Counted from the stretch's first letter, positions 13,076 through 64,000 are shown. The stretch is DNA of 64,000 bases from an uncultured Candidatus Saccharibacteria bacterium (GCA_964504205.1 CAZDDE010000001.1:58473-122472); one strand, 5' to 3'. The notes: a model not told the origin generated them from the letters alone. Translations and numbers: made by a program.

Positions 13076-14066
13076 ATGGTTCAATAGAGCCAAAAATAGA
13101 AATCATCTACTAAAAAATGGTTCTACAAGGCCGTTTTTTAATATGTAACTACGTTTTCTAATCAATAGCTTTGCATCACCTCGTTCGGTGTTTTGAACTG
13201 TAATCCCATATGCGGTCGTTCCTCATTGTAGTATCGGAGATAATCCGGTATTTCTTTTTGCCACGATTTCAAACTCCTTGGGATACGGTTCAAACACTCG
13301 TCCTGTATGGTCCGATTGAACCTCTCAAGATGAGCGTTGTCGTTCGGTTTTCGGACTCGAGAATGGCGATGCGCGATCCCGTCAACCGCCACCATTTTCG
13401 TGAACCACTTCGAGAACTCCGGTCCGTGATCCGACTGCAGGGTCTTGACCAGAAATGGTAGTGACGCTGTCCGCACAAATTTCAGACTTCTATGGGTACT
13501 GATTCTCATTGCTGGCTCGGCCCTGGAACAAACATCCAGTATGGTATATACATACAATCTATTCTCATGCGGTCCATCGTGAATCGTGTCAATTTCCACT
13601 AATACGCCTGGTTTTTCAGCTAAAGGCCGTTCCGGATACTGATGCCACTTCTTCCAGCGGGAGTACCGGCTGCAGCCAAATCTCTTCAATACCCGCTTCA
13701 CCGAACTCAAGCTTGCCTGGTAGCCGTCATTCGTTAATCGATGGTGGAGAATCTCCGCGCACTGATGTCTTTCCGACCGGTATTCAAGAATCTTCCTTAC
13801 GATTTCTTGAGAAAGTTCCCGCGGATGATGATGGGGACGACAAGAGCGAGTGGGGATTACCAGTAAGTTAGAATTCCGCGCCTGTTCGACCCAGCGGACA
13901 ATGGAACTTTGATGGTATCCGGTGTGCCTGGAGACTCGTCTCGTGCTCCAGCCGTCACGAATTACCAACTGAGCGGCTTTCATCCGAAGCCGAGGAATAT
14001 ATTGATTTGTAGTGTATGGCATACCCATAGCTTAGAGCCATAGGTGATGCAAAGCTATTGAACCAT
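13076..14066 (-). mobile_element. IS481-family insertion sequence (single-ORF DDE transposase) with 24-bp terminal inverted repeats; the left repeat is interrupted
   Basis: Right inverted repeat GGTGATGCAAAGCTATTGAACCAT (14043-14066). Its reverse complement ATGGTTCAATAG|CTTTGCATCACC occurs on the left as 13076-13087 plus 13169-13180, split by about 75 bp followed by a repeated CAATAG. Confidence 0.7.
13162..14028 (-). CDS. IS481-family transposase (rve/DDE integrase core with N-terminal HTH)
   Basis: D (VEIDTIH), D (LQSDHGPEF), E (NDNAHLERFNRTIQDE), ERPHMGL motif; 288 aa single ORF. Confidence 0.88.
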   Translation of the reverse strand: MGMPYTTNQYIPRLRMKAAQLVIRDGWSTRRVSRHTGYHQSSIVRWVEQARNSNLLVIPTRSCRPHHHPRELSQEIVRKILEYRSERHQCAEILHHRLTNDGYQASLSSVKRVLKRFGCSRYSRWKKWHQYPERPLAEKPGVLVEIDTIHDGPHENRLYVYTILDVCSRAEPAMRISTHRSLKFVRTASLPFLVKTLQSDHGPEFSKWFTKMVAVDGIAHRHSRVRKPNDNAHLERFNRTIQDECLNRIPRSLKSWQKEIPDYLRYYNEERPHMGLQFKTPNEVMQSY

Positions 14067-29840: not shown

Positions 29841-30473
29841 GTGGAAAGAATCTACGCATTCCTTCCGTCCGTTTTGGTCATGGCCTGTATCGCTGGTGTC
29901 ACGTTTCTCTACGTGAAGTGGGTCATCAAGCGGTTCGGCGACAACTTCAAGAGCGTCGAGTGGCATGAGAAGAATCAGCGGAAGGTCATCTGGGCCGTCG
30001 GCACGCCACTGGCCCATGTGTGGGCACCAGCAGTGGAGGAATTGATCTTCCGCGCTCCACTCATCATCGCGTTTGGTGCGATGTCTTCAGTCGCATGGTA
30101 CGGAGTTTTCGCGTCAAGCGGGCTCTTCGCGTTATCACACTGGTTCGGAAAGAAAATCTGGATGCCAGATATTCTTTCCGCGCGAGAGAATGGCAACCAC
30201 AAGACAGACGATGTGGTGGCAGAAGCGAATCGGCTCCACGCAGAGGAGGGGAAGATGATTATGGTGCGTAAGGTGCTCCATGTTGTCTTCACTCTACCCC
30301 TCGGCATCTTGGCTGGATACTACGGTATCAAGTATCAATCCATCTGGGTGGCCTTCGGGATTCACTCGGTGTGGAACCTCGTCATGCCGATCGTGGTTTC
30401 AATCCTCATGCTCTTGGGAGTGCTCACCCTCGTCGGCATCTCGTCTCTGTGGGACAGAGTAAGGTCGTGGTAA
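29841..30473 (+). CDS. CPBP-family (CAAX protease / Abi) intramembrane metalloprotease
   Basis: EELIFR (EExxxR motif 1), FALSHWF (FxxxH motif 2), HSVWN (HxxxN motif 3); GTG start with an AAGGAGG RBS. The gene uses mainly G/C-ending codons (GTC, ACG, TTC, GGC, AAG), whereas the flanking housekeeping genes use mainly A/T-ending codons (AAA, GAA, ATT). Confidence 0.75.
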   Translation: MERIYAFLPSVLVMACIAGVTFLYVKWVIKRFGDNFKSVEWHEKNQRKVIWAVGTPLAHVWAPAVEELIFRAPLIIAFGAMSSVAWYGVFASSGLFALSHWFGKKIWMPDILSARENGNHKTDDVVAEANRLHAEEGKMIMVRKVLHVVFTLPLGILAGYYGIKYQSIWVAFGIHSVWNLVMPIVVSILMLLGVLTLVGISSLWDRVRSW

Positions 30474-55246: not shown

Positions 55247-57034
55247 ATGGAAATACGCAACATCGCAATCATTGCCCATGTGGATCATGGCAAGACAACT
55301 CTTACCGATGCCATTATGCGCGAGACCGGTATGTTTGTGGACGGTATGAGCATGGACACAAATGCGCTCGAGCAGGAGCGCGGTATTACGATTTACTCAA
55401 AAAATTCTGCGTTTTTTTACAAAGGCACAAAAATTAACATCGTTGACACTCCGGGGCACGCGGATTTTGGATCGGAGGTGGAACGAGTTCTGCGATCCAT
55501 TGATTCGGTCGTTCTTGTCGTTGACGCGCAGGATGGGCCGATGCCGCAAACCCGTTTTGTGCTGAAAAAATCTCTTGAACTCGGATTAAAGCCAATCGTC
55601 GTTATCAATAAAATTGATAAAGCGGCCGCGAATCCAAAACTTTGCGAAGAGCAAGTTCTGGAACTTTTCTTTGATCTTGGCGCCGACGAAGAACAGCTTA
55701 ACTTCTCGCTTGTCTACGCGATTGGCCGCGAAGGAATCGCGAAGCGGAATCTTACTGACGAAGGGAAGGATTTGAGTCCGCTTCTTGATCTAATTCTTGA
55801 GAAGGTGAAGCGAGCTCCGGCTGAAGTTGGAATTCCGTTGCGCGCCCAGCCATTTAATCTTGGGTACGATAATTTTCTTGGGAGGCTCGCTATTGTGCGA
55901 ATATATGAAGGGATGATTCACGTCGGAGACAATGTGTATGTGAAAAACTCCATTGGCGAAAGCCGCAGTGGAAAAGTTACAAAACTTTTTACGTTTCGGG
56001 GCCTTGCGCGGGAGGAAGTGAGTGAAGCGTACGCGGGTGATATTGTAATGATTGCCGGCCTTGCGGATATTACGATAGGAGAGACGATCTGTGAATCGCC
56101 TGCGCAAGATCCGCTTCCGGCGATCAAAGTTGACGAGCCGACGATTGTGCTTTATTTTTTGGTCAATGATTCGCCCTTCGCGGGGCGGGAAGGAAAGTTT
56201 GTGACTTCGCGGCAGATTCGCGAGCGGCTGGAAAAAGAACTTGAAGTAAATGTCGGTTTACAGGTGGACTTTAATGATGCGGCTGGATTTAAGGTCTATG
56301 GCCGGGGAGAACTGCACATCGCGATTCTTCTTGAAAATATGCGGCGCGAAGGATACGAAACGCAGGTTTCTCAACCGCAAGTGATTATCAAAAAAATAGA
56401 CGGAGTGAAAATGGAGCCGTTTGAAGAAGTGACGGTTGATGTGCCGCTTGAATTTCAGGGGCAAGTTATTGAGAAAATGGCAAAGCGAGCCGCCAGATTA
56501 CTCGATGTCAAACAGCAAGAAGAGACGATCCGGCTTATCTTTAAGGGGCCGACAAGAGGACTTTTCGGGTATCGCGGAGAATTTATGATTGAAACGAAAG
56601 GAGAAGGGATATTTTCAAGCAGGGTTGTGGGCTTTGAGCCATATGCCGGGGAAATCCAGAAACGCAAGGTTGGCTCCATGACTTCCATGATGACAGGCAA
56701 AGCCCTGGCGTTTCCTCTTTGGAATCTTCAGGAGCGCGGCATGCTGTACATCGAGGCCAATACGGAAGTCTACGAGGGTATGGTTATCGGCAATACGACC
56801 AAGGGTTTTGAGATGGCGGTCAATCCAATCAAGGGGAAGGATCTTACCAATATGCGGAGATCGGTCAAGGAAGAATCAGTTCATCTTACCACGCCGCAAC
56901 TTTTAACAATCGAGCGAGGCCTTGAAATAATGCGCGATGACGAATATCTTGAGATTACCCCCCAAAGCATCCGTCTGCGCAAAAAATATCTTAGTGCAGC
57001 GGATAGAAGAAAGTTTGAGAGGGCAAAGGAATGA
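55247..57034 (+). CDS. typA: translational GTPase TypA/BipA
   Basis: NIAIIAHVDHGKTTL, DTPGHADF, NKIDK, EF-G-like domain architecture; 595 aa. Confidence 0.9.
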   Translation: MEIRNIAIIAHVDHGKTTLTDAIMRETGMFVDGMSMDTNALEQERGITIYSKNSAFFYKGTKINIVDTPGHADFGSEVERVLRSIDSVVLVVDAQDGPMPQTRFVLKKSLELGLKPIVVINKIDKAAANPKLCEEQVLELFFDLGADEEQLNFSLVYAIGREGIAKRNLTDEGKDLSPLLDLILEKVKRAPAEVGIPLRAQPFNLGYDNFLGRLAIVRIYEGMIHVGDNVYVKNSIGESRSGKVTKLFTFRGLAREEVSEAYAGDIVMIAGLADITIGETICESPAQDPLPAIKVDEPTIVLYFLVNDSPFAGREGKFVTSRQIRERLEKELEVNVGLQVDFNDAAGFKVYGRGELHIAILLENMRREGYETQVSQPQVIIKKIDGVKMEPFEEVTVDVPLEFQGQVIEKMAKRAARLLDVKQQEETIRLIFKGPTRGLFGYRGEFMIETKGEGIFSSRVVGFEPYAGEIQKRKVGSMTSMMTGKALAFPLWNLQERGMLYIEANTEVYEGMVIGNTTKGFEMAVNPIKGKDLTNMRRSVKEESVHLTTPQLLTIERGLEIMRDDEYLEITPQSIRLRKKYLSAADRRKFERAKE

Positions 57035-57131
57035 ATAGAAAGGGGCTGTGAATGCGGAAAATTTGACAAGGTTATAATTTTATGCTAGTTATAAGTATTC
57101 GGATTCAGGTCACCCCCTAAGGAGATGTTAA

Positions 57132-57512
57132 ATGTTAAAATTTCTGATGGATGCTTACTTCGCTCCGAAGTTATTTGAGAAAGACGGTAAAGATATACGA
57201 ACTTTTGGGAGTTCGTATCTTCAAGAAGTTCCTACCGACTTGTGGAGATTATATGCTTCGATATACAGGACTTCGACTCCTAAACTATGGCTCTTCGGAG
57301 ACGCTCAAGCGCTGGGAGATTTTCACAAGGCTATACGAAACAGCACATCTAGTTTTCTTCGTAATAATGTTCGTACTAATGCTCTACGGTCTTCTGGGTT
57401 CTTTTTCGGTGCTAGCATTTGTTCTGAATCTTGTAGTGAATCTTGTAGTGAATGTCTACCCGATGATGGTTCAACGTTACAACAGAGGAAGAATCTACAG
57501 GATACTTCATAA
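57132..57512 (+). CDS. hypothetical protein, frame A of two overlapping open frames; has the strong RBS
   Basis: TAAGGAG 9 nt upstream of ATG 57132; third codon positions are strongly T-biased; a 12-nt tandem repeat encodes SCSESCSEC. Confidence 0.35.
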   Translation: MLKFLMDAYFAPKLFEKDGKDIRTFGSSYLQEVPTDLWRLYASIYRTSTPKLWLFGDAQALGDFHKAIRNSTSSFLRNNVRTNALRSSGFFFGASICSESCSESCSECLPDDGSTLQQRKNLQDTS

Positions 57513-57555
57513 AAGAGAGGCAAGCAGAGCGACCACTAGCGTTCAAAGACTTTGA
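57151..57555 (+). CDS. hypothetical small membrane protein, frame B overlapping frame A; no RBS of its own
   Basis: 134 aa with a 40-residue uncharged hydrophobic hairpin (HLVFFVIMFVLMLYGLLGSFSVLAFVLNLVVNLVVNVYPMMV) and a basic tail. This may be a shadow of a T3-biased frame A. Confidence 0.3.
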   Translation: MLTSLRSYLRKTVKIYELLGVRIFKKFLPTCGDYMLRYTGLRLLNYGSSETLKRWEIFTRLYETAHLVFFVIMFVLMLYGLLGSFSVLAFVLNLVVNLVVNVYPMMVQRYNRGRIYRILHKREASRATTSVQRL

Positions 57556-57601
57556 CATTGGTCATCTGACAGCTAATACGAGTACGAGACGAAGTAGAAG
57601 G

Positions 57602-57647
57602 GGTTCTAACCGTTCATGCGGGTACCCAAAGTTAGAACCTTTTTTTG
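57602..57647 (+). terminator. rho-independent terminator
   Basis: GGTTCTAAC...GTTAGAACC 9-bp stem followed by TTTTTTT. Confidence 0.8.
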
Positions 57648-57699
57648 TTTCCGCTCTTGTGCTAATCACAGGATTATCTTTTTGTGCTATAATTTGCAT

Positions 57700-58287
57700 A
57701 TGGCTAGAATTAACTTTTTATTTTTACAAAAAATTGCTGTTTCCCTAGGCATTGTTATTGTGTTGAATCTGCTTTTTAACATTGCCGTAGGAACTTTTTA
57801 TAATACGCCAAAATATGACGATTTTTGCCGTGAGGAACATCGCAGGTACTACGATAACAAAGAGGCGTGTTCGGCAGTGGGCGGAGAATGGGGCGCGTAT
57901 ATTGATGGGCCGTATTATCCGCGGTCGGCTCCGGCAAAAGTTGTTGGGGAGGAAAACGAATCTGATGAACCAAAAGAATACTGCAACCCCGCTAAAACTT
58001 GCCAGAAGGAATACGACAGCGCGCGCAATTTATACAATCGCAACGTGTTTATAGTTTTAGTTTCGCTTGGCGCTGTATCCATTATCTTATCTATATTTTT
58101 GGTACAAGTAAGAGCTGTGTCCTCCGGCTTTCTGTTCGGTGGCCTCTTATCTATATTCATCGGAACAACGCGATACTGGTCTGATATGGACGAGTATTTG
58201 CGCCTGATAGCGCTCGCTATCGTTTTAGCGGGGTTGGTATGGGTAGGGTACAAAAAGCTCAAGGATAAAAGAGATATGCCAAAATAA
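57700..58287 (+). CDS. hypothetical membrane protein with a Cys-containing extracytoplasmic loop; predicted leaderless
   Basis: Extended -10 TGcTATAAT (57685-57693) ends 6 nt before ATG 57700; N-terminal transmembrane helix, four Cys in the loop, two C-terminal transmembrane helices. Confidence 0.5.
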   Translation: MARINFLFLQKIAVSLGIVIVLNLLFNIAVGTFYNTPKYDDFCREEHRRYYDNKEACSAVGGEWGAYIDGPYYPRSAPAKVVGEENESDEPKEYCNPAKTCQKEYDSARNLYNRNVFIVLVSLGAVSIILSIFLVQVRAVSSGFLFGGLLSIFIGTTRYWSDMDEYLRLIALAIVLAGLVWVGYKKLKDKRDMPK

Positions 58288-58291
58288 CAAT

Positions 58292-59845
58292 ATGGTCTCC
58301 AGCGACAAGGAAAACAATGTGAATATGTACGAATCTGACCCGGAAGGGAGCAGGTATGTGCATGTTGATTATGTTGCAAGTAAGGTCTCGTTTCTCTATG
58401 AAAAGATTCGTCAGGTTATTGATTATCATGAGGAACATTTGTTGCGCGAGAATGCGATAGAGCGCAGCATCCGGCGGCATCTTCTACTTACGCAAACTCC
58501 TGCGCCATTTGCACGTGATCTCATCGAAGAGATGATACGCGGCGGGTACTTTGCGAACGACACAATTTTAAACACGAGCATTGTAAAAGTTCAAAAAATT
58601 CTTGATAGATATACTGAAACATTACGGATTGCGGTCGCAAAGAAATTAAGGGACAAAAATCTTGCAAACTTTCTTTACGGCATCGCGTCTTGCGAAATCG
58701 AAGAGTTTCTTGATTATCCGTCTAAAGAACTTTTGCTTCTGGAGTTTGAATATGCGACTCTCAAAAATCATTTGCGCATCTTTGGCGCTGAAATTGGGGA
58801 AGATGACAAAGAAATGCTTCTTTTTATTGCTATCAACCAAACCCTTCTGCGTGCCGACCAAAGACGGATTTATTTTCGGCTGATGCAAAAAATGCATCCC
58901 GAATGGTTTGAAAAGGAAGCGTCTGAAGCCGCCGAATTTCTTCCGATTATTTCACGCGCAAAAATGCGTTTTGAATCTTTATTTCATAATTCTGCGCTGA
59001 AACGGATAAAAAACAGAGCAGGGCAGTTTGCGATAATTTTTCAAACACTCTCCGATATTTCCGGGGACGATCCCCAGCGCCTCGCCGGTTTTGCTGAAGA
59101 TCCGCAGGAATTATCAAAAGCTGTCGGAAAATCGTATACTCGCCGTTTTAACAATTTGAGGACAAAATTGAAGCGAGCTGGTTTCCGGTCAGTCCTCTCC
59201 ATATTTTTTGGGAAAATTCTTATTGCGCTCGCTATCGAGGTTCCAGCTGAATTGCTCTTTGCCGGACAAATTATTCCTTATGCGCTTATGCTAAGCATTA
59301 TTTTTCCGCCATCGATCATGCTTTTTGCCGTATTATCGATCCGCATGCCTTCGCGCGATAACTTGCAAAAATTAATCGGGCAGGTATCAAGTATTATGCA
59401 GGGCGCTTTTGAATATGAACCGATAGAAATCACGAACCGGAAGAGAAGTTCGTTTATTTCCTTTATACTCACCATTCTTTATATTTTGACGTTCGCAATT
59501 TCTTTTGGCGGTGTGATAGCTGGTTTAAACATGCTTCATTTCAACGTATTAAGCATTATTGTATTTTGGCTTTTCCTCTCACTCATTATTTTTTCCGCAA
59601 TGCGCATCAAGCAGTGGGCTAGGGAACTTAATGTTGGTCCGCAAAAAGAAGGATTTGGAGGATTCTTCCTTGACATTTTCACTATTCCAATTGTGGGTTT
59701 TGGAAAATTTTTATCCGGCGAGCTAAGCCGCTTTAACATCTTGGTTTTACTTTTCAATCTCTTTTTCGAAGCACCGTTTCAAAGCTTTGTACAGTTTATT
59801 GAGGAGTGGAGAAGATTTATCCGCGAAAAAAAGGAGGAGTTGTAA
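58292..59845 (+). CDS. hypothetical protein: ~300-aa soluble N-terminal domain plus C-terminal polytopic membrane domain
   Basis: 517-aa ORF, no recognisable motifs; four to five C-terminal transmembrane helices. Confidence 0.5.
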   Translation: MVSSDKENNVNMYESDPEGSRYVHVDYVASKVSFLYEKIRQVIDYHEEHLLRENAIERSIRRHLLLTQTPAPFARDLIEEMIRGGYFANDTILNTSIVKVQKILDRYTETLRIAVAKKLRDKNLANFLYGIASCEIEEFLDYPSKELLLLEFEYATLKNHLRIFGAEIGEDDKEMLLFIAINQTLLRADQRRIYFRLMQKMHPEWFEKEASEAAEFLPIISRAKMRFESLFHNSALKRIKNRAGQFAIIFQTLSDISGDDPQRLAGFAEDPQELSKAVGKSYTRRFNNLRTKLKRAGFRSVLSIFFGKILIALAIEVPAELLFAGQIIPYALMLSIIFPPSIMLFAVLSIRMPSRDNLQKLIGQVSSIMQGAFEYEPIEITNRKRSSFISFILTILYILTFAISFGGVIAGLNMLHFNVLSIIVFWLFLSLIIFSAMRIKQWARELNVGPQKEGFGGFFLDIFTIPIVGFGKFLSGELSRFNILVLLFNLFFEAPFQSFVQFIEEWRRFIREKKEEL

Positions 59846-59948
59846 TACAAAGAAGCTTTGCGTGGCTATTCGTAAAAGCGAGATTTTGGAGATTGTACAC
59901 AGGATAGAGATATTTACTTGACTGGAGAAAATATATTATAATAAATGT

Positions 59949-60365
59949 ATGTTTGATACATTTGGCAATCGTTTTCAAAAATACGCCTCTCTTTTTTTGC
60001 GTTTGGGATTGGGAATAGTATTTTTTCTGTTTGGATTGAAGAAACTGATGGACCCCGAACAGAGCACGGCCGAGGTTCAACTGCTTTTGAGTTTTGAATT
60101 GGCCGATGCCGCGGCGCTAAGTTTTTATCTTGGTTTGGTTGAAATAATGGTGGCTCTATCTTTTCTAACCGGTCTTAAGGTGCGCGCGTTTGCCTTGATT
60201 GCGGCCGCTCTGACCATTTTGTTTTTCACCTCCTTTTTGGCAAAATATGGCCTTTCGATCAATCCGGATCTCTATCGAGATGTTGGTCTCTTCGGTGCTT
60301 CTATCGCTTTATTTCTCTTGGGCGCGGGGCCAATAAGTTTGGATAATAGATTCAGGCATGAATAA
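59949..60365 (+). CDS. DoxX-family membrane protein
   Basis: 138 aa, four transmembrane helices, DoxX-like LRLGLGIVFFLFGLKKL N-terminus. Confidence 0.65.
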   Translation: MFDTFGNRFQKYASLFLRLGLGIVFFLFGLKKLMDPEQSTAEVQLLLSFELADAAALSFYLGLVEIMVALSFLTGLKVRAFALIAAALTILFFTSFLAKYGLSINPDLYRDVGLFGASIALFLLGAGPISLDNRFRHE

Positions 60366-60789: not shown

Positions 60790-63209
60790 AAGTCCAAAAA
60801 CTATACAGAATTGAGGGCATGCACTGCGCGTCGTGCGCCGTGCTGATCAATAAAGTCCTTGCGAAACAAAAAGGCGTTCAATCGGTCAACGCCAGTTTTG
60901 GCGCGGAAAAGTTAGTCATAGAATTTGATCATGAGCTTATCACCGAAGAGAAGATCAAGCAGCTTGTCAAAGCGCTTGGTTACACGCTTATTTTAGAGGA
61001 AGAAAAGACCGAAGAGGAGTTTAAGAAAGAACGCGATGCGCGCATGCGCGGTTTACGCAACCGCACGATCATAAGCTTTCTTTTGGCAAGCCCGATCATC
61101 GGCTATTATATGGCGGTGCACATGCTTAATTTGCAGCACGTGCACGCAATTACAGTTTCGGGAATTTTTATTGATTTAAACTGGATTTATCTTGTTATGA
61201 CCATTCCCATTCAATTTTGGGTGGGGTGGATATTTTATAAAAGCGCGTGGACGGCATTTAAAGTTGGTTCAACGTCCATGGATACACTTGTCGTCTTGGG
61301 CACCAGCGCCGCGTTTTTTTACAGCTTGTTCGGATTTCTGTTTTCAATAACTTATAATAACATGTGTCACGGAATCTTTAATATTCTTGCCTTTCGTTGC
61401 CAAAGCATTTGGTTTGGTATTGACCATCCATTCTGGGAATCATCGGCGGCGCTGATGTCATTTTTGATTTTAGGACGATACCTTGAAGGTATCTCGCGCG
61501 GCAAGGTTTCTGAAGCCGTCGGCAAACTTTTAGATCTTGCTCCGCAGGGCGCGATTATTGTTGATGAGAGCGGCCATGAAAAGGAAATTCTAGCCAAAGA
61601 TTTGAAAAAGGATGATATTTTTTTGGTCAAACCGGGATCAAAAGTTCCGACCGACGGGATTGTGCTTGACGGCGAAAGCTCGGTTGATGAAAAAATTGTT
61701 ACCGGCGAATCAATGCCGGTTGGCAAAAATCCCGGCGATGAAGTGATCGGCGCCACAATCAATACTTATGGATTATTAAAATGCCGGGCGACAAAAGTCG
61801 GCAAGGAGACATTGCTTTTCCAGATTGTACGGCTGGTGCGCGAGGCGCAGGCGACTCGCGCACCTATGCAAAGGGTCGCCGATTGGCTTTCCGAGCGATT
61901 TGTGCCGGCAGTTATTGCTTTAAGCTTAATTGCTTTTAATTATTGGTTTTTTATTCAGGGCAACGATTTTGCGCCTTCGCTTTTGTTTATGGTGGCGGTT
62001 TTGGTCATTTCCTGTCCTTGCGCTTTGGGTCTTGCGACACCGATTGCGACAATGGTTGGCACGACCAAAGGCGCCGAGTCGGGAATTCTGATTAAAGGCG
62101 GCGAAGCATTGGAAAAAGCGCATAAAATTACGGCGGTGGCGTTTGATAAAACCGGCACGATCACCAAAGGGGAACCGGCTGTTACCGATATTGTGCCATT
62201 CGGAGGCATCAGTAAAGAACAAATGCTTGAGATTGCGGCGATTGCCGAAAGAGGGTCGGAACACCCGTTGGCAAAGGCAGTCATAAAGAGGGCGAATGAC
62301 CTTGGATTTGATGTTCCTGAACCTAAAAATTTTAAGGCGATATCCGGCATGGGAGTTTACGCCGAGCATAACGATTTGAAGATTCTTGTCGGCAATAAAA
62401 TGTTTTTGGAAAAAGAGGGGATTGGCGTCAAAGAATACGCAAAAGAGGTTGATCGTTTAAGCATGGAGGCAAAAACAGTCGTTTTTGTCGCGTATGGGCA
62501 AAAAGTCATTGGCCTTCTTGCACTGGCGGATACTTTGAAAGAATACGCCAAAGAAGCAATCGCGGAGCTGAAGCGGCGCAAGAAAGAGATTATCATGATT
62601 ACCGGCGACAATGAGCATACCGCTCAAGCCATTGCGAAAAAACTTGGTATAGACAAGACCTACGCGAATGTTTTGCCGGAAAAGAAGGAAGAGCTCATAG
62701 AATCAATCAAAAAAGAAGGGAAAGTTGTCGCAATGGTCGGCGACGGCATCAATGATGCGCCAGCGCTTGCGAAGGCCGATTTAGGCCTTGCGGTCGGTTC
62801 AGGCACCGATGTGGCAATTGAGACTGGGGATATTATTTTAATTAAAGATGACCTGCGCGATGTTGTAACCGCAATCGATCTTTCCAGTAAAACTATCTTT
62901 AAGATTTGGCAAAACTTTTTTTGGGCATTTGTGTATAATGTTGTTGCGATTCCAGTTGCGGCGGGTCTGCATTTGGTGCTTACTGTGCGCCAGGGCGAGC
63001 TTGCCGCATGGGCTGTTTCTTTTGGAAATATCCTTGCGTCTATTCCCGCGGCCGGCGAAGTGATACAATCAATATGGGAGAATTTTGCGCAAAGCGGATT
63101 GCGTCCGGAAATCGCCGGTTTCGCGATGGCGTTCAGCTCAATATCAGTCGTGCTGAACTCGTTATTATTGCGATTATATAAAGAGCCCAAATTTGCGCGG
63201 GCAAAATAA
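60786..63209 (+). CDS. copA: copper-translocating P1B-type ATPase
   Basis: HMA domain GMHCASCA, CPC transmembrane motif (SCPCALGLATP), DKTGTIT, GDGINDAPAL, HP motif (SEHPLA). Confidence 0.95.
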   Translation: MKVQKLYRIEGMHCASCAVLINKVLAKQKGVQSVNASFGAEKLVIEFDHELITEEKIKQLVKALGYTLILEEEKTEEEFKKERDARMRGLRNRTIISFLLASPIIGYYMAVHMLNLQHVHAITVSGIFIDLNWIYLVMTIPIQFWVGWIFYKSAWTAFKVGSTSMDTLVVLGTSAAFFYSLFGFLFSITYNNMCHGIFNILAFRCQSIWFGIDHPFWESSAALMSFLILGRYLEGISRGKVSEAVGKLLDLAPQGAIIVDESGHEKEILAKDLKKDDIFLVKPGSKVPTDGIVLDGESSVDEKIVTGESMPVGKNPGDEVIGATINTYGLLKCRATKVGKETLLFQIVRLVREAQATRAPMQRVADWLSERFVPAVIALSLIAFNYWFFIQGNDFAPSLLFMVAVLVISCPCALGLATPIATMVGTTKGAESGILIKGGEALEKAHKITAVAFDKTGTITKGEPAVTDIVPFGGISKEQMLEIAAIAERGSEHPLAKAVIKRANDLGFDVPEPKNFKAISGMGVYAEHNDLKILVGNKMFLEKEGIGVKEYAKEVDRLSMEAKTVVFVAYGQKVIGLLALADTLKEYAKEAIAELKRRKKEIIMITGDNEHTAQAIAKKLGIDKTYANVLPEKKEELIESIKKEGKVVAMVGDGINDAPALAKADLGLAVGSGTDVAIETGDIILIKDDLRDVVTAIDLSSKTIFKIWQNFFWAFVYNVVAIPVAAGLHLVLTVRQGELAAWAVSFGNILASIPAAGEVIQSIWENFAQSGLRPEIAGFAMAFSSISVVLNSLLLRLYKEPKFARAK

Positions 63210-63218
63210 ATTAATGGT

Positions 63219-64000
63219 ATGGAAATAAACAAAATTTACAATGGCGATTTTTTTGAGCTAATAAAACAGATTGATGACAAGTCAATAGACTTGATCGTAT
63301 GCGATGGCCCTTATGGAGTGACTAATCAAGAGTGGGATAGGATAAACAATATTCAGGAATATAATTTGAATTTGATCAAATTATATTCAAGGGTGCTAAA
63401 GGATAATGGGGCTCTTTACTTATTCGGCAAACATGATTGCATTGATTTTATTGATTATCGTCCTTACCTGCAGTTAAATTCTAAAATTGTTTGGTATCAA
63501 CCTAGCAGGTTAGCTCAAGGCAGAATAAGTTATACAAACAATTACGATATTATTGCCTACTTCAGTAAGAGCAAAGTCAAAACCTTTAATCTTGACGATA
63601 TACGAGTCCCGCAATTAGTAGAGTTGGAGCACAGGTTAAGGGTTGAAAAAGTGCCCTCTGTTACTAACGGCAAATTTCACAAAACAAAATTCAATGGGGA
63701 TGGGAAAAATCCGGGTGATGTTTGGGGGGATATAAAACAGCTCACTTATAAATCAAGGGAGTTGATAAATAGAGAATTATTAAATACAATACAAAAACCT
63801 ATTAAATTGATCGATAGAATAGTTAAGGCAAGCTCAAAAGAGGGTAATTTGGTTTTAGATCCATTTGCTGGAGTCGGGACCACATTTGTCGTTTGCAAAG
63901 AGCTTAAAAGAAATTTTATAGGTTTTGAAATCAATCCAGATTATGTTGAGATTTGTAACGAACGAATAAAAGAAGTTGAATTGAAGCAAAGTAGTAAACT
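63219..64000 (+). CDS. DNA methyltransferase (N6-adenine/N4-cytosine, beta-class; motif IV before motif I), 3'-partial
   Basis: CDGPYGV (D/SPPY-like motif IV) near the N-terminus and DPFAGVGTT (FxGxG motif I) near the C-terminus. The track's 63214 ATG hits a stop after 4 codons; ATG 63219 stays open to the window end. AT-rich relative to the flanks. Confidence 0.8.
   Translation, partial: MEINKIYNGDFFELIKQIDDKSIDLIVCDGPYGVTNQEWDRINNIQEYNLNLIKLYSRVLKDNGALYLFGKHDCIDFIDYRPYLQLNSKIVWYQPSRLAQGRISYTNNYDIIAYFSKSKVKTFNLDDIRVPQLVELEHRLRVEKVPSVTNGKFHKTKFNGDGKNPGDVWGDIKQLTYKSRELINRELLNTIQKPIKLIDRIVKASSKEGNLVLDPFAGVGTTFVVCKELKRNFIGFEINPDYVEICNERIKEVELKQSSK

What the first reader, a model, noticed from the sequence alone, without database searches (positions are those of the whole stretch)
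57080..59850. Compositionally distinct block with two overlapping open frames, a 12-nt tandem repeat and three unknown membrane proteins upstream of the copper module
Between typA and DoxX the sequence switches to AT-rich DNA with different codon usage from the host (CGA, AGA, CTA, GTA). Two frames are simultaneously open for about 400 nt (57132-57512 and 57151-57555). Frame A has a textbook RBS and T3-biased codons. Frame B encodes a 40-residue uncharged hydrophobic hairpin. A tandem 12-mer GAATCTTGTAGT x2 (57426-57449) keeps both frames open (SCSESCSEC versus LVVNLVVN). A strong terminator follows. Next are a predicted leaderless 196-aa membrane protein with a four-Cys loop and a 517-aa protein with a soluble N-domain and polytopic C-domain, neither recognisable. 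This may be a foreign cassette (phage- or defense-related membrane proteins) or copper-associated accessory genes. The dual coding could reflect a programmed frameshift or a shadow ORF.
Basis: partly seen in the sequence, partly recalled or inferred. Interest (0 to 1): 0.55.

Follow-up and report, generated by a model that had tools for sequence, protein, structure and literature searches.

The report
Frameshifted acquired gene beside native membrane genes
The two overlapping open frames are the front and back halves of one small, recently acquired membrane-enzyme gene broken by a single extra base. The two "unknown" membrane proteins next to it are ordinary, widely conserved genes of the host's own lineage (Patescibacteria), not a foreign cassette.

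Summary
The sequence features are real, but the block is not one unit.

**Frames A and B (57132-57512, 57151-57555)** are one gene of Pfam family PF18927 (CrtO, small membrane acyltransferase).
- The strong ribosome-binding site (RBS), the ATG and codons 1-20 lie in frame A. Codons 21-140 lie in frame B.
- Intact homologues read straight through. The window carries one extra base at GGT-AAA-G-ATA (57189-57192).
- The extra base is identical in three assemblies, so it is not a one-off assembly error.
- Only this ~600-bp gene has foreign codon usage (z = 5.6), and a close relative lacks it.
- Most likely it is a recently acquired gene inactivated by a +1 frameshift mutation. Frame A's long tail is out-of-frame read-through.
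- That tail is unexpectedly free of stops (about 7 expected). With the AAA_G site and an adjacent 9-bp hairpin, this keeps a programmed +1 shift possible but unlikely.

**The 195-aa and 517-aa proteins** have host-like codon usage.
- Both belong to conserved Patescibacteria-only families with no Pfam, phage, defence or solved-structure relative. The 517-aa family has more than 1,100 clusters at 50% identity.
- The 195-aa four-Cys protein sits by the DoxX-cupredoxin-CopA module only in close relatives.
- The 517-aa family usually sits among housekeeping genes.

Their functions remain unknown. Overall the finding is ordinary.

The parts
57119..57124 (+). Shine-Dalgarno AAGGAG, 7 nt upstream of the true start codon of the CrtO-family gene
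   Evidence: Sequence. The 5' region is homologous to that of the intact homologue L029.
57132..57191 (+).
   Evidence: Matches the N-termini of P0104 and P0105. Adding it to frame B raises the PF18927 score from 76.7 to 86.4 bits and extends profile coverage to positions 3-122 of 123.
57189..57192 (+). Frameshift site AAA_G: one extra base relative to intact homologues (GGT AAA G ATA in the window against GG- ACG A ATA in L029)
   Evidence: DNA alignment with L029 shows a 1-nt gap exactly here. The site is identical in the window, L001 and L002.
57193..57555 (+). 3' piece of the CrtO-family gene: codons 21-140 plus the stop, in frame B. It encodes the hydrophobic hairpin (fused-protein residues about 66-114) and the conserved NVYPMMVQRYNR motif
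   Evidence: PF18927 E = 2.5e-21 for frame B alone. Substitutions against L029 fall at codon positions 1/2/3 as 26/18/51. Hydropathy profile.
57192..57512 (+). Out-of-frame tail of frame A: 106 codons with no homologue. This is what public gene callers annotate as a 126-aa protein
   Evidence: No family hits. The annotated protein is a singleton cluster. The same frame carries 2-22 stops in all homologues. Its lack of stops is unexpected.
57195..57218 (+). Perfect 9-bp hairpin with a 6-nt loop, starting 3 nt after the AAA_G site. Significance unknown
   Evidence: The sequence of the intact homologue L029 at this position does not appear to form the stem; this was judged by eye, not folded.
57358..57381 (+). 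Older in-frame 12-nt tandem duplication (FVIM/FVLM) inside the hydrophobic hairpin
   Evidence: TRF reports 2 copies at 91%. It coincides with an insertion relative to L029.
57425..57453 (+). Recent in-frame 12-nt tandem duplication (LVVN LVVN) inside the hydrophobic hairpin
   Evidence: TRF reports 2.4 copies at 100%. It coincides with an insertion relative to L029.
57602..57646 (+). Intrinsic-terminator-like hairpin (9-bp perfect arms, 20-nt loop) plus a T7 run, closing the CrtO-like unit
   Evidence: The consensus scan missed it because of the long loop.
57665..57693 (+). Promoter-like site with an extended -10 (TGcTATAAT; -10 hexamer at 57688-57693), ending 6 nt before ATG 57700. This predicts a leaderless ORF3-ORF4 transcript
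   Evidence: Scores 10 of 12 with a TG extension. L008 has the same TATAAT + 6 nt + ATG geometry. There is no SD.
57700..58287 (+). ORF3: 195-aa, 4-TM protein with an extracytoplasmic loop holding four conserved Cys (C43, C57, C95, C101). Member of a family seen here only in Patescibacteria
   Evidence: 52 homologues at 40-83% identity. AF2 pLDDT 75. Host-like codon usage, z = 0.28.
58292..59845 (+). ORF4: 517-aa protein with a cytoplasmic all-alpha domain (about 1-290) and at least 4 TM helices. Member of a large Patescibacteria family. It starts 4 nt after the ORF3 stop
   Evidence: 51 homologues. 1,114 representatives at 50% identity. AF2 pLDDT 82, pTM 0.79. No structural relative. Codon usage z = 0.87.
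59913..59942 (+). Separate promoter-like site (TTTACT-18-TATAAT) ending 6 nt before the DoxX ATG at 59949. The copper module therefore looks like its own (leaderless) transcription unit

Best explanation
The block holds three unrelated things.

**1. A disrupted acquired gene (57119-57646).** This is a self-contained unit of about 600 bp with its own RBS and terminator. It encodes a small membrane protein of the CrtO family (PF18927). The family is named after the acyltransferase that adds a fatty acid to a glycosylated carotenoid in Staphylococcus.
- The unit was acquired recently by horizontal transfer.
- It then gained one extra base, most simply AA to AAA in an ancestral GGT-AAG-ATA, after codon 20.
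- Ribosomes start at ATG 57132 and read 20 correct codons. They then run out of frame for 106 codons to TAA 57510-57512 and make a non-homologous, non-membrane 126-aa product.
- The conserved 120-codon remainder in frame B is not translated, or only through rare spontaneous +1 slips.
- The gene is therefore most likely a young pseudogene. The 12-nt repeats are in-frame slippage duplications that lengthened its hydrophobic hairpin.

**2 and 3. ORF3 and ORF4.** These are native genes of a Patescibacteria genome. They are probably co-transcribed as a leaderless bicistron from the extended -10 promoter at 57685-57693.
- ORF3 is a 4-TM protein, N- and C-termini inside, that displays a four-Cys (probably two-disulfide) loop outside the cell.
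- ORF4 has a conserved cytoplasmic helical domain on a membrane anchor of four or more TM helices.

**Shown versus inferred.** Shown: the single-gene architecture, the 1-nt insertion, the atypical codon usage of that gene only, and the family membership and distribution of ORF3 and ORF4. Inferred: pseudogene status, leaderless transcription, topology and the disulfides.

**Functional guesses (low confidence).** ORF3 may be an envelope thiol- or metal-related accessory. This rests on its adjacency to DoxX-cupredoxin-CopA in close relatives and to a DCC1-like thiol oxidoreductase in L011. ORF4 may be a housekeeping cell-envelope protein. This rests on its recurrent adjacency to GT2, galT, a DedA-like (VTT-domain) gene and gpsA.
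For: **One gene, two frames**
- Frame B hits PF18927 with E = 2.5e-21.
- Homologues P0104 and P0105 begin MLKFL..YFxPKxFEKxG(K/R)IYELLGV. That is frame A residues 1-20 followed by frame B from residue 15.
- The fused protein scores 86.4 bits, covering profile positions 3-122 of 123.
- DNA alignment to the intact L029 shows a 1-nt gap at 57188-57192.

**The frameshift is real DNA.** The window and two ENA assemblies are 100% identical over 561 nt. The exact 126-aa frame A product is also on record from NCBI, ENA and Logan.

**Not conserved, so mutational**
- The 13 best genome homologues, from phyla ranging from Woesearchaeota to Bacteroidota, read through in one frame. L029 does too. L025, L027 and L028 show disruptions at other sites.
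- All 17 carry 2-22 stops in the frame A equivalent.
- Substitutions against L029 fall at frame B codon positions 1/2/3 as 26/18/51.

**Acquired.** Codon-usage z = 5.6 for this gene, against 0.28, 0.87, 0.84 and 0.02 for ORF3, ORF4, DoxX and cupredoxin. The gene is absent from the close relative L008.

**ORF3 and ORF4 are native and conserved.** Their neighbourhoods are housekeeping ones. They have no phage or defence hits.

**Leaderless geometry.**
Against: - Frame A is free of stops for 106 codons past the shift. About 7 stops are expected (P about 0.0004-0.002 for this gene). A plain recent mutation does not predict this.
- The shift site AAA_G would let tRNA-Lys re-pair in the +1 frame. 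A perfect 9-bp hairpin starts 3 nt downstream.
- Frame B carries no second lesion, and both tandem duplications are multiples of three. Decay has therefore not visibly begun, which would also fit a gene that is still expressed.
- No sister genome with the orthologous gene was found, so the age and conservation of the shift could not be tested.
- The functions proposed for ORF3 and ORF4 rest only on variable gene neighbourhoods in compact genomes.
Confidence: 0.72

Rival explanations
1. Programmed +1 ribosomal frameshift. Ribosomes with tRNA-Lys on AAA (57189-57191) slip to AAG (57190-57192), helped by the hairpin at 57195-57218. This would produce both the 126-aa frame A protein and the 140-aa CrtO-family protein from one mRNA.
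For: - AAA to AAG re-pairing gives exactly the homologous junction ...FEKDGK-IYELLGV.
- A perfect 9-bp hairpin starts 3 nt downstream.
- Frame A is kept open far beyond expectation.
- Frame B is otherwise intact.
- The shift is fixed in all assemblies.
Against: - None of the 17 homologues is shifted at this site, and L029 lacks both the extra base and, as far as the sequence shows by eye, the hairpin.
- The 0-frame A-site codon is an ordinary GAT, not a stop or a rare codon.
- There is no SD-like element 3 nt upstream. prfB-type sites are defined by an in-frame premature stop and an internal SD (PMC12421855, PMC10798248).
- The local fold has z = -0.86, which is not exceptional.
- The gene is a recent acquisition, leaving little time for a recoding signal to evolve.
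Confidence: 0.08
2. Frame B is translated on its own from ATG 57151. This would give a functional CrtO-like protein with a scrambled 14-residue N-terminus, so the gene survives the frameshift.
For: - Frame B has an in-frame ATG upstream of the lesion.
- The genome makes little use of SD sequences, only 11 of 53 ORF starts, so SD-independent initiation is conceivable.
- Frame B has no further lesions.
Against: - There is no SD or leaderless geometry for ATG 57151, which lies 19 nt inside an efficiently initiated ORF.
- The product would lack the D-x-YF-x-PK-x-FEK-x-G motif, which is invariant in the three-sequence alignment A5 and part of the Pfam profile.
Confidence: 0.08
3. Sequencing or assembly artefact. 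The gene is intact in the cells and the extra base is an error.
For: A single-base indel in a short A-run is a typical kind of error. Other family members from public MAGs also show frame breaks (L027, L028).
Against: - Two separate short-read-style assemblies (contig names k139_ and k119_) and the window are identical over 561 nt.
- The exact frame A product is also on record from the Logan assemblies.
- The run is only three A's long.
Confidence: 0.05
4. Genuine dual coding (overprinting). Frame A's 126-aa product is a functional new protein maintained by selection alongside frame B.
For: Frame A is stop-free with P about 0.0004-0.002, and it has the strong RBS.
Against: - Frame A's tail has no homologue and no family hit, and the annotated protein is a singleton cluster.
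- The equivalent frame is full of stops in every relative.
- The substitution pattern fits frame B only.
- The tail is Ser/Thr-rich and low in complexity, with no hydrophobic segment.
Confidence: 0.04
5. One reading: the whole of 57080-59850 is one foreign (phage- or defence-related) membrane-protein cassette.
For: GC is somewhat lower than in typA (0.40-0.44 against 0.48-0.50). The three proteins match no annotated family.
Against: - ORF3 and ORF4 have host-like codon usage and GC within the host range.
- Their families have more than 50 and more than 1,100 members respectively. Every source-named hit is from Patescibacteria, and the neighbourhoods are housekeeping ones.
- There are no PHROG, PADLOC or phage tblastn hits.
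- A terminator and a promoter separate the CrtO-like unit from ORF3.
Confidence: 0.03

Closest known systems
Pfam PF18927 CrtO family (glycosyl-4,4'-diaponeurosporenoate acyltransferase of Staphylococcus aureus staphyloxanthin synthesis)
   Same: The fused A+B protein matches the profile almost end to end (86.4 bits, positions 3-122 of 123). It has the family's layout: an N-terminal YFxPKxFE motif, a hydrophobic hairpin and a C-terminal NxYPxMVQRYNR motif.
   Different: - The reading frame is broken after codon 20.
- The hairpin is about 14-17 residues longer than in the nearest homologue, through two 12-nt duplications.
- No carotenoid genes appear in the ±6 kb neighbourhood. The substrate in a Patescibacteria host, or in the unknown donor, need not be a carotenoid.
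- The family name describes the annotated function of the Staphylococcus member (for example PMC3825675, PMC9598406). It was not tested here.
prfB-type programmed +1 frameshift sites
   Same: A shift-prone P-site codon whose tRNA can re-pair one base downstream (AAA to AAG here, CUU to UUU in prfB). The shift comes early in the gene and restores the conserved frame.
   Different: - There is no in-frame stop or slow codon after the slip codon.
- There is no internal SD.
- The site is not conserved in homologues. The prfB features are taken from PMC12421855 and PMC10798248.
Frameshift pseudogenes / split genes in metagenome-assembled genomes
   Same: A single-base indel in a short homopolymer splits one gene into two overlapping ORFs. 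Gene callers then annotate the wrong piece.
   Different: The out-of-frame piece is unusually long: 106 codons without a stop, where about 7 stops are expected.
Conserved hypothetical membrane-protein families restricted to Patescibacteria (CPR)
   Same: ORF3 and ORF4 are uniform in length. Every hit that carries a source name comes from Patescibacteria. Neither has a Pfam or NCBIfam model or a solved-structure relative.
   Different: No named family could be assigned. ORF3 members give only sub-threshold hits to DUF2157 (20 of 49).

Membership tests
Pfam PF18927 (CrtO family) | Profile score above the curated gathering cut-off (27.3 bits) | tested here: met
   76.7 bits for frame B alone and 86.4 bits for the fused A(1-20)+B protein.
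Pfam PF18927 (CrtO family) | Near full-length match, including the N-terminal YFxPKxFE and C-terminal NxYPxMVQRYNR motifs that flank a hydrophobic hairpin | tested here: met
   Profile positions 3-122 of 123 are covered. Motifs are invariant in A5. Hydrophobic stretch at residues 66-114.
Pfam PF18927 (CrtO family) | Uninterrupted reading frame (a functional gene) | tested here: not met
   A 1-nt insertion at 57189-57192 relative to the intact L029, identical in three assemblies.
Pfam PF18927 (CrtO family) | Carotenoid-pathway gene neighbourhood, as for S. aureus crtOPQMN | tested here: not met
   Genes within ±6 kb are a DEAD-box helicase, typA, ORF3, ORF4, DoxX, cupredoxin and CopA. The rest of the genome was not examined.
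Pfam PF18927 (CrtO family) | Acyltransferase activity | not testable with these tools
   Needs biochemistry.
Programmed +1 ribosomal frameshift (prfB type) | The P-site tRNA can re-pair in the +1 frame at the shift codon | tested here: met
   AAA_G: AAA and AAG are both Lys codons, and the junction reproduces the homologous GK-IYE.
Programmed +1 ribosomal frameshift (prfB type) | In-frame stop or slowly decoded codon in the A site | tested here: not met
   The next 0-frame codon is GAT.
Programmed +1 ribosomal frameshift (prfB type) | SD-like stimulator a few nt upstream of the slip codon | tested here: not met
   The upstream sequence GAGAAAGACGGT contains no GGAGG-like core.
Programmed +1 ribosomal frameshift (prfB type) | The shift is conserved among orthologues | tested here: not met
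   L029 and the 16 genome homologues show no frame change at this site. True orthologues in sister genomes were not available.
Overlapping (dual-coding) genes | Both frames open and constrained in relatives | tested here: not met
   There are 2-22 stops in the frame A equivalent of every homologue. Substitutions peak at frame B's third codon position.
Phage- or defence-related cassette | Similarity to phage or defence protein families, or to phage genomes | tested here: not met
   No significant PHROGs or PADLOC hits. tblastn against 50,697 phage records found nothing.
Phage- or defence-related cassette | Composition and codon usage foreign to the host across the block | tested here: not met
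   Only the CrtO-like gene deviates (z = 5.6). ORF3 and ORF4 give z = 0.28 and 0.87.
Copper-module accessory genes | Conserved adjacency to DoxX-cupredoxin-CopA across relatives | tested here: inconclusive
   ORF3: 3 of 6 contexts (window, L008, L031), all close relatives; not in L011, L012 or L033. ORF4: only the window and L008, of 7 distinct contexts. DoxX has its own promoter-like site.
Leaderless mRNA (ORF3) | -10 hexamer about 6-7 nt upstream of the start codon, and no SD | tested here: met
   TGcTATAAT ends at 57693 and the ATG is at 57700. L008 has the same geometry. The transcription start itself cannot be tested here.

The most novel reading that the evidence does not exclude
The AAA_G site with its adjacent 9-bp hairpin is a working +1 recoding signal in a Patescibacteria bacterium. 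One horizontally acquired mRNA would then yield two proteins that share 20 N-terminal residues: a soluble 126-aa frame A product and the 140-aa CrtO-family membrane protein. Selection for the first product would explain why frame A is kept free of stops. This would be a +1 frameshift of a type not described in bacteria, with no stop codon and no internal SD.
Probability: 0.07. Interest if true: 0.6.

Novelty: new member of a known kind. Interest (0 to 1): 0.27.

Why it matters
**Annotation.** Public records (NCBI, ENA, Logan) carry the out-of-frame 126-aa product as a singleton hypothetical protein and miss the CrtO-family gene altogether. They also start ORF3 inside the upstream terminator, giving a 223-aa version. 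This case shows how one indel creates a false orphan protein.

**Biology.** A CPR genome picked up, and probably already lost the use of, a small lipid-modifying membrane enzyme.

**A more durable point.** ORF4 belongs to a family of more than 1,100 clusters at 50% identity. The family has a confident predicted fold with no solved relative and no function. It is a reasonable target for anyone working through the conserved unknowns of Patescibacteria cell-envelope biology.

If the small chance of a programmed +1 shift were real, it would be a new recoding signal.

Tried and rejected
- **Library scans.** Pfam, NCBIfam, PHROGs and PADLOC scans of ORF3, ORF4 and frame A found nothing above threshold.
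- **Member-by-member Pfam scans.** ORF4 members gave only scattered chance hits. ORF3 gave sub-threshold DUF2157 hits in 20 of 49 members.
- **Solved-structure sequence search.** Profiles of both families found nothing.
- **Exhaustive profile search with the ORF4 family.** It showed the size of the family. Only the 150 best hits were listed, all full-length members, so no bridge to a known family was seen.
- **Search for close relatives of the CrtO-like gene.** The aim was to date the frameshift. The results were 2 word-sharing proteins, 16 distant genome loci and 1 metagenome locus, with no sister orthologue.
- **Flanking repeats.** A search for direct repeats around the CrtO-like unit that would mark an insertion found none.
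- **Rfam.** Only two tRNAs elsewhere in the window.
- **GT2/galT/map cluster.** tblastn for the cluster that accompanies ORF4 in other genomes found nothing in this window.
- **Host codon usage as a test of frames A and B.** Uninformative, because the gene is foreign in either frame.

Full report
**1. What is in the sequence**

The + strand between typA (55247-57034) and DoxX (59949-60365) holds four ORFs:
- frame A, 57132-57512, 126 aa
- frame B, 57151-57555, 134 aa, offset +1 from frame A
- ORF3, 57616/57700-58287
- ORF4, 58292-59845, 517 aa

- AAGGAG lies 7 nt before ATG 57132.
- The 12-nt tandem repeat at 57425-57453 has 2.4 copies at 100% identity. An older one lies at 57358-57381.
- A hairpin with 9-bp perfect arms plus a T7 run lies at 57602-57646.

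**2. The two open frames are one gene with a frameshift**

Frame B matches Pfam PF18927 (CrtO, glycosyl-4,4'-diaponeurosporenoate acyltransferase) at E = 2.5e-21. Frame A matches nothing.

The two word-sharing homologues in 5.8 billion proteins, P0104 and P0105, are both PF18927 members. Around their conserved N-terminal motif they read MLKFLLNLDFYFTPKFFEKSGRIYELLGVRIFKKFLPT (P0104) and ...DMYFRPKEFEKDGKIYEKLGV (P0105). In the window the first part, MLKFLMDAYFAPKLFEKDGK, is frame A codons 1-20. The continuation, IYELLGVRIFKKFLPT..., is frame B from codon 15.

Joining the two pieces gives a 140-aa protein. It scores 86.4 bits instead of 76.7 and covers profile positions 3-122 of 123.

The intact homologue L029 comes from a groundwater metagenome contig. 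At the DNA level it reads GG-ACGAATATAC where the window reads GGTAAAGATATAC. The window therefore has one extra base at 57189-57192. The simplest origin is AA to AAA in an ancestral GGT-AAG-ATA.

Substitutions between the window and L029 fall at frame B codon positions 1/2/3 as 26/18/51. This is the pattern of a gene that evolved in frame B.

Frame A's apparent T3 bias is frame B's T-rich second codon position, 42% T, which is typical of a membrane protein.

**3. Is the extra base real?**

The window and two separate ENA assemblies are identical over 561 nt that include the site. The contig names (k139_, k119_) suggest short-read assemblies. The exact 126-aa frame A product is on record from NCBI, ENA and Logan. 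Frame B is not called anywhere. A one-off assembly error is unlikely.

**4. Mutation or programmed recoding?**

Evidence for a mutation:
- The 13 best of the 16 genome homologues read through in one frame. They span Woesearchaeota, Edwardsbacteria, Burkholderiales, Vicinamibacterales, Pontibacter, Saccharibacteria and others. L029 also reads through.
- Three weaker hits (L025, L027, L028) show disruptions at other sites.
- All 17 carry 2-22 stops in the frame A equivalent.
- The site lacks the hallmarks of the bacterial +1 paradigm prfB, which are an in-frame premature stop and an internal SD (PMC12421855, PMC10798248). Here the next codon is GAT and there is no SD-like element upstream.

Three observations keep recoding from being excluded:
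- AAA_G allows tRNA-Lys to re-pair in the +1 frame, and this gives exactly the homologous junction.
- A perfect 9-bp hairpin starts 3 nt downstream. L029's sequence there does not appear able to form it.
- Frame A stays stop-free for 106 codons past the shift. Synonymous-codon permutations of frame B give 7.2 stops on average, and none of 20,000 is stop-free. Codon shuffling gives P = 0.0004.

For calibration, host genes carry about 6.5 stops per 100 codons in that frame, and their longest open run is 104 codons. The excess is therefore borderline, and I record it as unexplained.

I put the overall account given here, with a plain frameshift mutation (a young pseudogene) at its centre, at about 0.72. 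I put programmed +1 shifting at about 0.07-0.08. Independent initiation of frame B at ATG 57151 gets about 0.08; it would lose the conserved N-terminal motif. A sequencing artefact gets 0.05 and true dual coding 0.04.

**5. Only this gene is foreign**

I measured codon-usage distance from the pool of 47 host ORFs, against simulated genes with the same amino-acid sequence.

| Gene | z |
|---|---|
| CrtO-like gene (frame B) | 5.6 |
| ORF3 | 0.28 |
| ORF4 | 0.87 |
| DoxX | 0.84 |
| cupredoxin | 0.02 |

The CrtO-like gene is the second most atypical gene in the window. The GC of ORF3 (0.423) and ORF4 (0.413) lies within the host range of 0.41-0.54.

The close relative L008, whose ORF4 is 66% identical, has ORF3 directly after the upstream gene with no CrtO-like gene between them.

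The CrtO-like unit has its own RBS and terminator. Its 5' leader is homologous to that of L029. No flanking repeats were found.

The two 12-nt tandem repeats coincide with insertions relative to L029. They lengthen the hydrophobic hairpin in frame.

**6. ORF3**

The start at 57700 gives 195 aa. It matches the N-termini of 52 homologues, most of them 180-200 aa long and 40-83% identical. The only homologue that carries a taxon name is from Candidatus Spechtbacterales.

Hydropathy and the AF2 model (pLDDT 75) give four TM helices, with positive charges at both termini. The loop of about 75 residues after TM1 holds C43, C57, C95 and C101, each conserved in at least 90% of members. Placing this loop outside the cell, with two disulfides, is an inference.

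TGcTATAAT ends 6 nt before the ATG and there is no SD. L008 has the same geometry, so a leaderless transcript is plausible.

Contexts found for ORF3:
- window and L008: ORF3-ORF4-DoxX-cupredoxin-CopA
- L031: histidine kinase-ORF3-response regulator-DoxX-cupredoxin-CopA
- L011: ORF3 followed by a DCC1-like/LMF1 membrane protein
- L012: ORF3 followed by a class I aminoacyl-tRNA synthetase (probably leuS)
- L033: cold-shock protein-ORF3-CAP domain-sortase

The copper link therefore holds only among close relatives.

**7. ORF4**

There are 51 word-sharing homologues at 24-66% identity, and those that carry a name are from Patescibacteria. An exhaustive profile search finds 1,114 representatives at 50% identity. 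Of these, 704 have E of 1e-30 or better, and the 150 best are 505-596 aa long.

The AF2 model is confident (pLDDT 82, pTM 0.79). It shows an all-helical N-terminal domain of about 290 residues and then helices that include four strongly hydrophobic TM segments.

Invariant residues are Y36, E37, R40, R58 and R62 in the soluble domain, and E316, P318, P353, P466, G471, N482 and P495 in the membrane part.

The neighbourhoods of ORF4 are housekeeping ones:
- thrS-X-miaA
- galT-X
- DUF502-X-map-GT2-galT-VTT (DedA-like)-tpiA-pgk
- map-X-gpsA-GT2-galT
- X-GT2-galT

In those loci the gene often has its own TGnTATAnT + 6 nt + ATG leaderless geometry. In the window it starts 4 nt after the ORF3 stop and has no such promoter, so it is probably co-transcribed with ORF3.

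A cell-envelope role is a weak inference from these neighbourhoods.

**8. Relation to the copper module**

DoxX has its own promoter-like site ending 6 nt before its ATG. DoxX, cupredoxin and CopA overlap start-to-stop. The copper module therefore looks like a separate transcription unit. ORF4 is not copper-linked outside the window and L008. ORF3 may be, in this clade.

**9. Verdict**

The unifying idea of a compositionally distinct foreign cassette is not. The dual-frame puzzle resolves into one acquired CrtO-family gene broken by a single extra base. The two unknown proteins are native members of conserved Patescibacteria families. The finding is an ordinary case with a useful annotation correction, one small unexplained statistical oddity, and a pointer to a large uncharacterised family.

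Noticed in passing
window 58178 and 58187 (L001 2752, 2761): Over 10.4 kb, the ENA assembly L001 differs from the window at only two bases. Both lie in ORF3 and are 9 nt apart. G to A turns the family-invariant Trp160 codon TGG into TAG (stop). T to A changes Met163 to Lys. This explains the 187-aa product P0053. It is either a loss-of-function strain variant or a local error.
   Followed up: partly
window 57132-57512 and 57616-58287: Public annotation (NCBI, ENA, Logan) carries the out-of-frame 126-aa frame A product as a singleton protein. It never calls the CrtO-homologous frame B. It also starts ORF3 at 57616, inside the loop of the upstream terminator hairpin (223 aa), rather than at 57700.
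   Followed up: yes
window-wide, e.g. 59949 (DoxX), 49968 (P-type ATPase), 34811; L009 3251, L010 6001, L032 109: Only 11 of 53 ORF starts have an SD-like motif. Several genes have a TATAAT-like hexamer, often with a TG extension, ending 6-7 nt before the ATG. Leaderless mRNAs may therefore be common in this genome and its relatives. Start codons were taken as the longest ORF, so the count is rough.
   Followed up: partly
window 29841-30473 (+): An Rce1-like CAAX protease (PF02517, E = 8e-12) with GC3 of 0.71 and the most atypical codon usage in the window (z = 8.3). It is another candidate for recent acquisition.
   Followed up: partly
window 13162-14028 (-): An integrase-core transposase (rve_3, rve, HTH_23) with mildly atypical codon usage (z = 2.5). 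It is an insertion-sequence remnant or copy.
   Followed up: no
window 63200-64000: GC drops to 0.33-0.36 just after CopA. In L001 the gene there is an N6_N4 DNA methyltransferase. It is followed by an HMA (CopZ-like) protein and a 614-aa DsbD_TM protein beyond the window end.
   Followed up: no
L031 1-4695: In a relative whose DoxX and cupredoxin are 72% identical to the window's, the ORF3 homologue lies between a histidine-kinase gene and a response-regulator gene, directly upstream of DoxX-cupredoxin-CopA. This hints at a sensory or accessory role in that clade.
   Followed up: partly
L027 3950-4251 and L028 3947-4391: Two other CrtO-family loci in public MAGs (Lysobacterales and a Gammaproteobacteria bin) also show internal stops or frame changes, at sites different from the window's. 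Disrupted copies, or assembly indels, are not rare in this family.
   Followed up: no
window 57125-57139: A 7-nt tandem repeat, ATGTTAA x2.1, spans the start codon. It creates a second ATG (57125) abutting the SD, in the third frame, with a 17-codon ORF. L029 has a similar ATGCCAAATGCTCAA, so the pattern predates the split.
   Followed up: no
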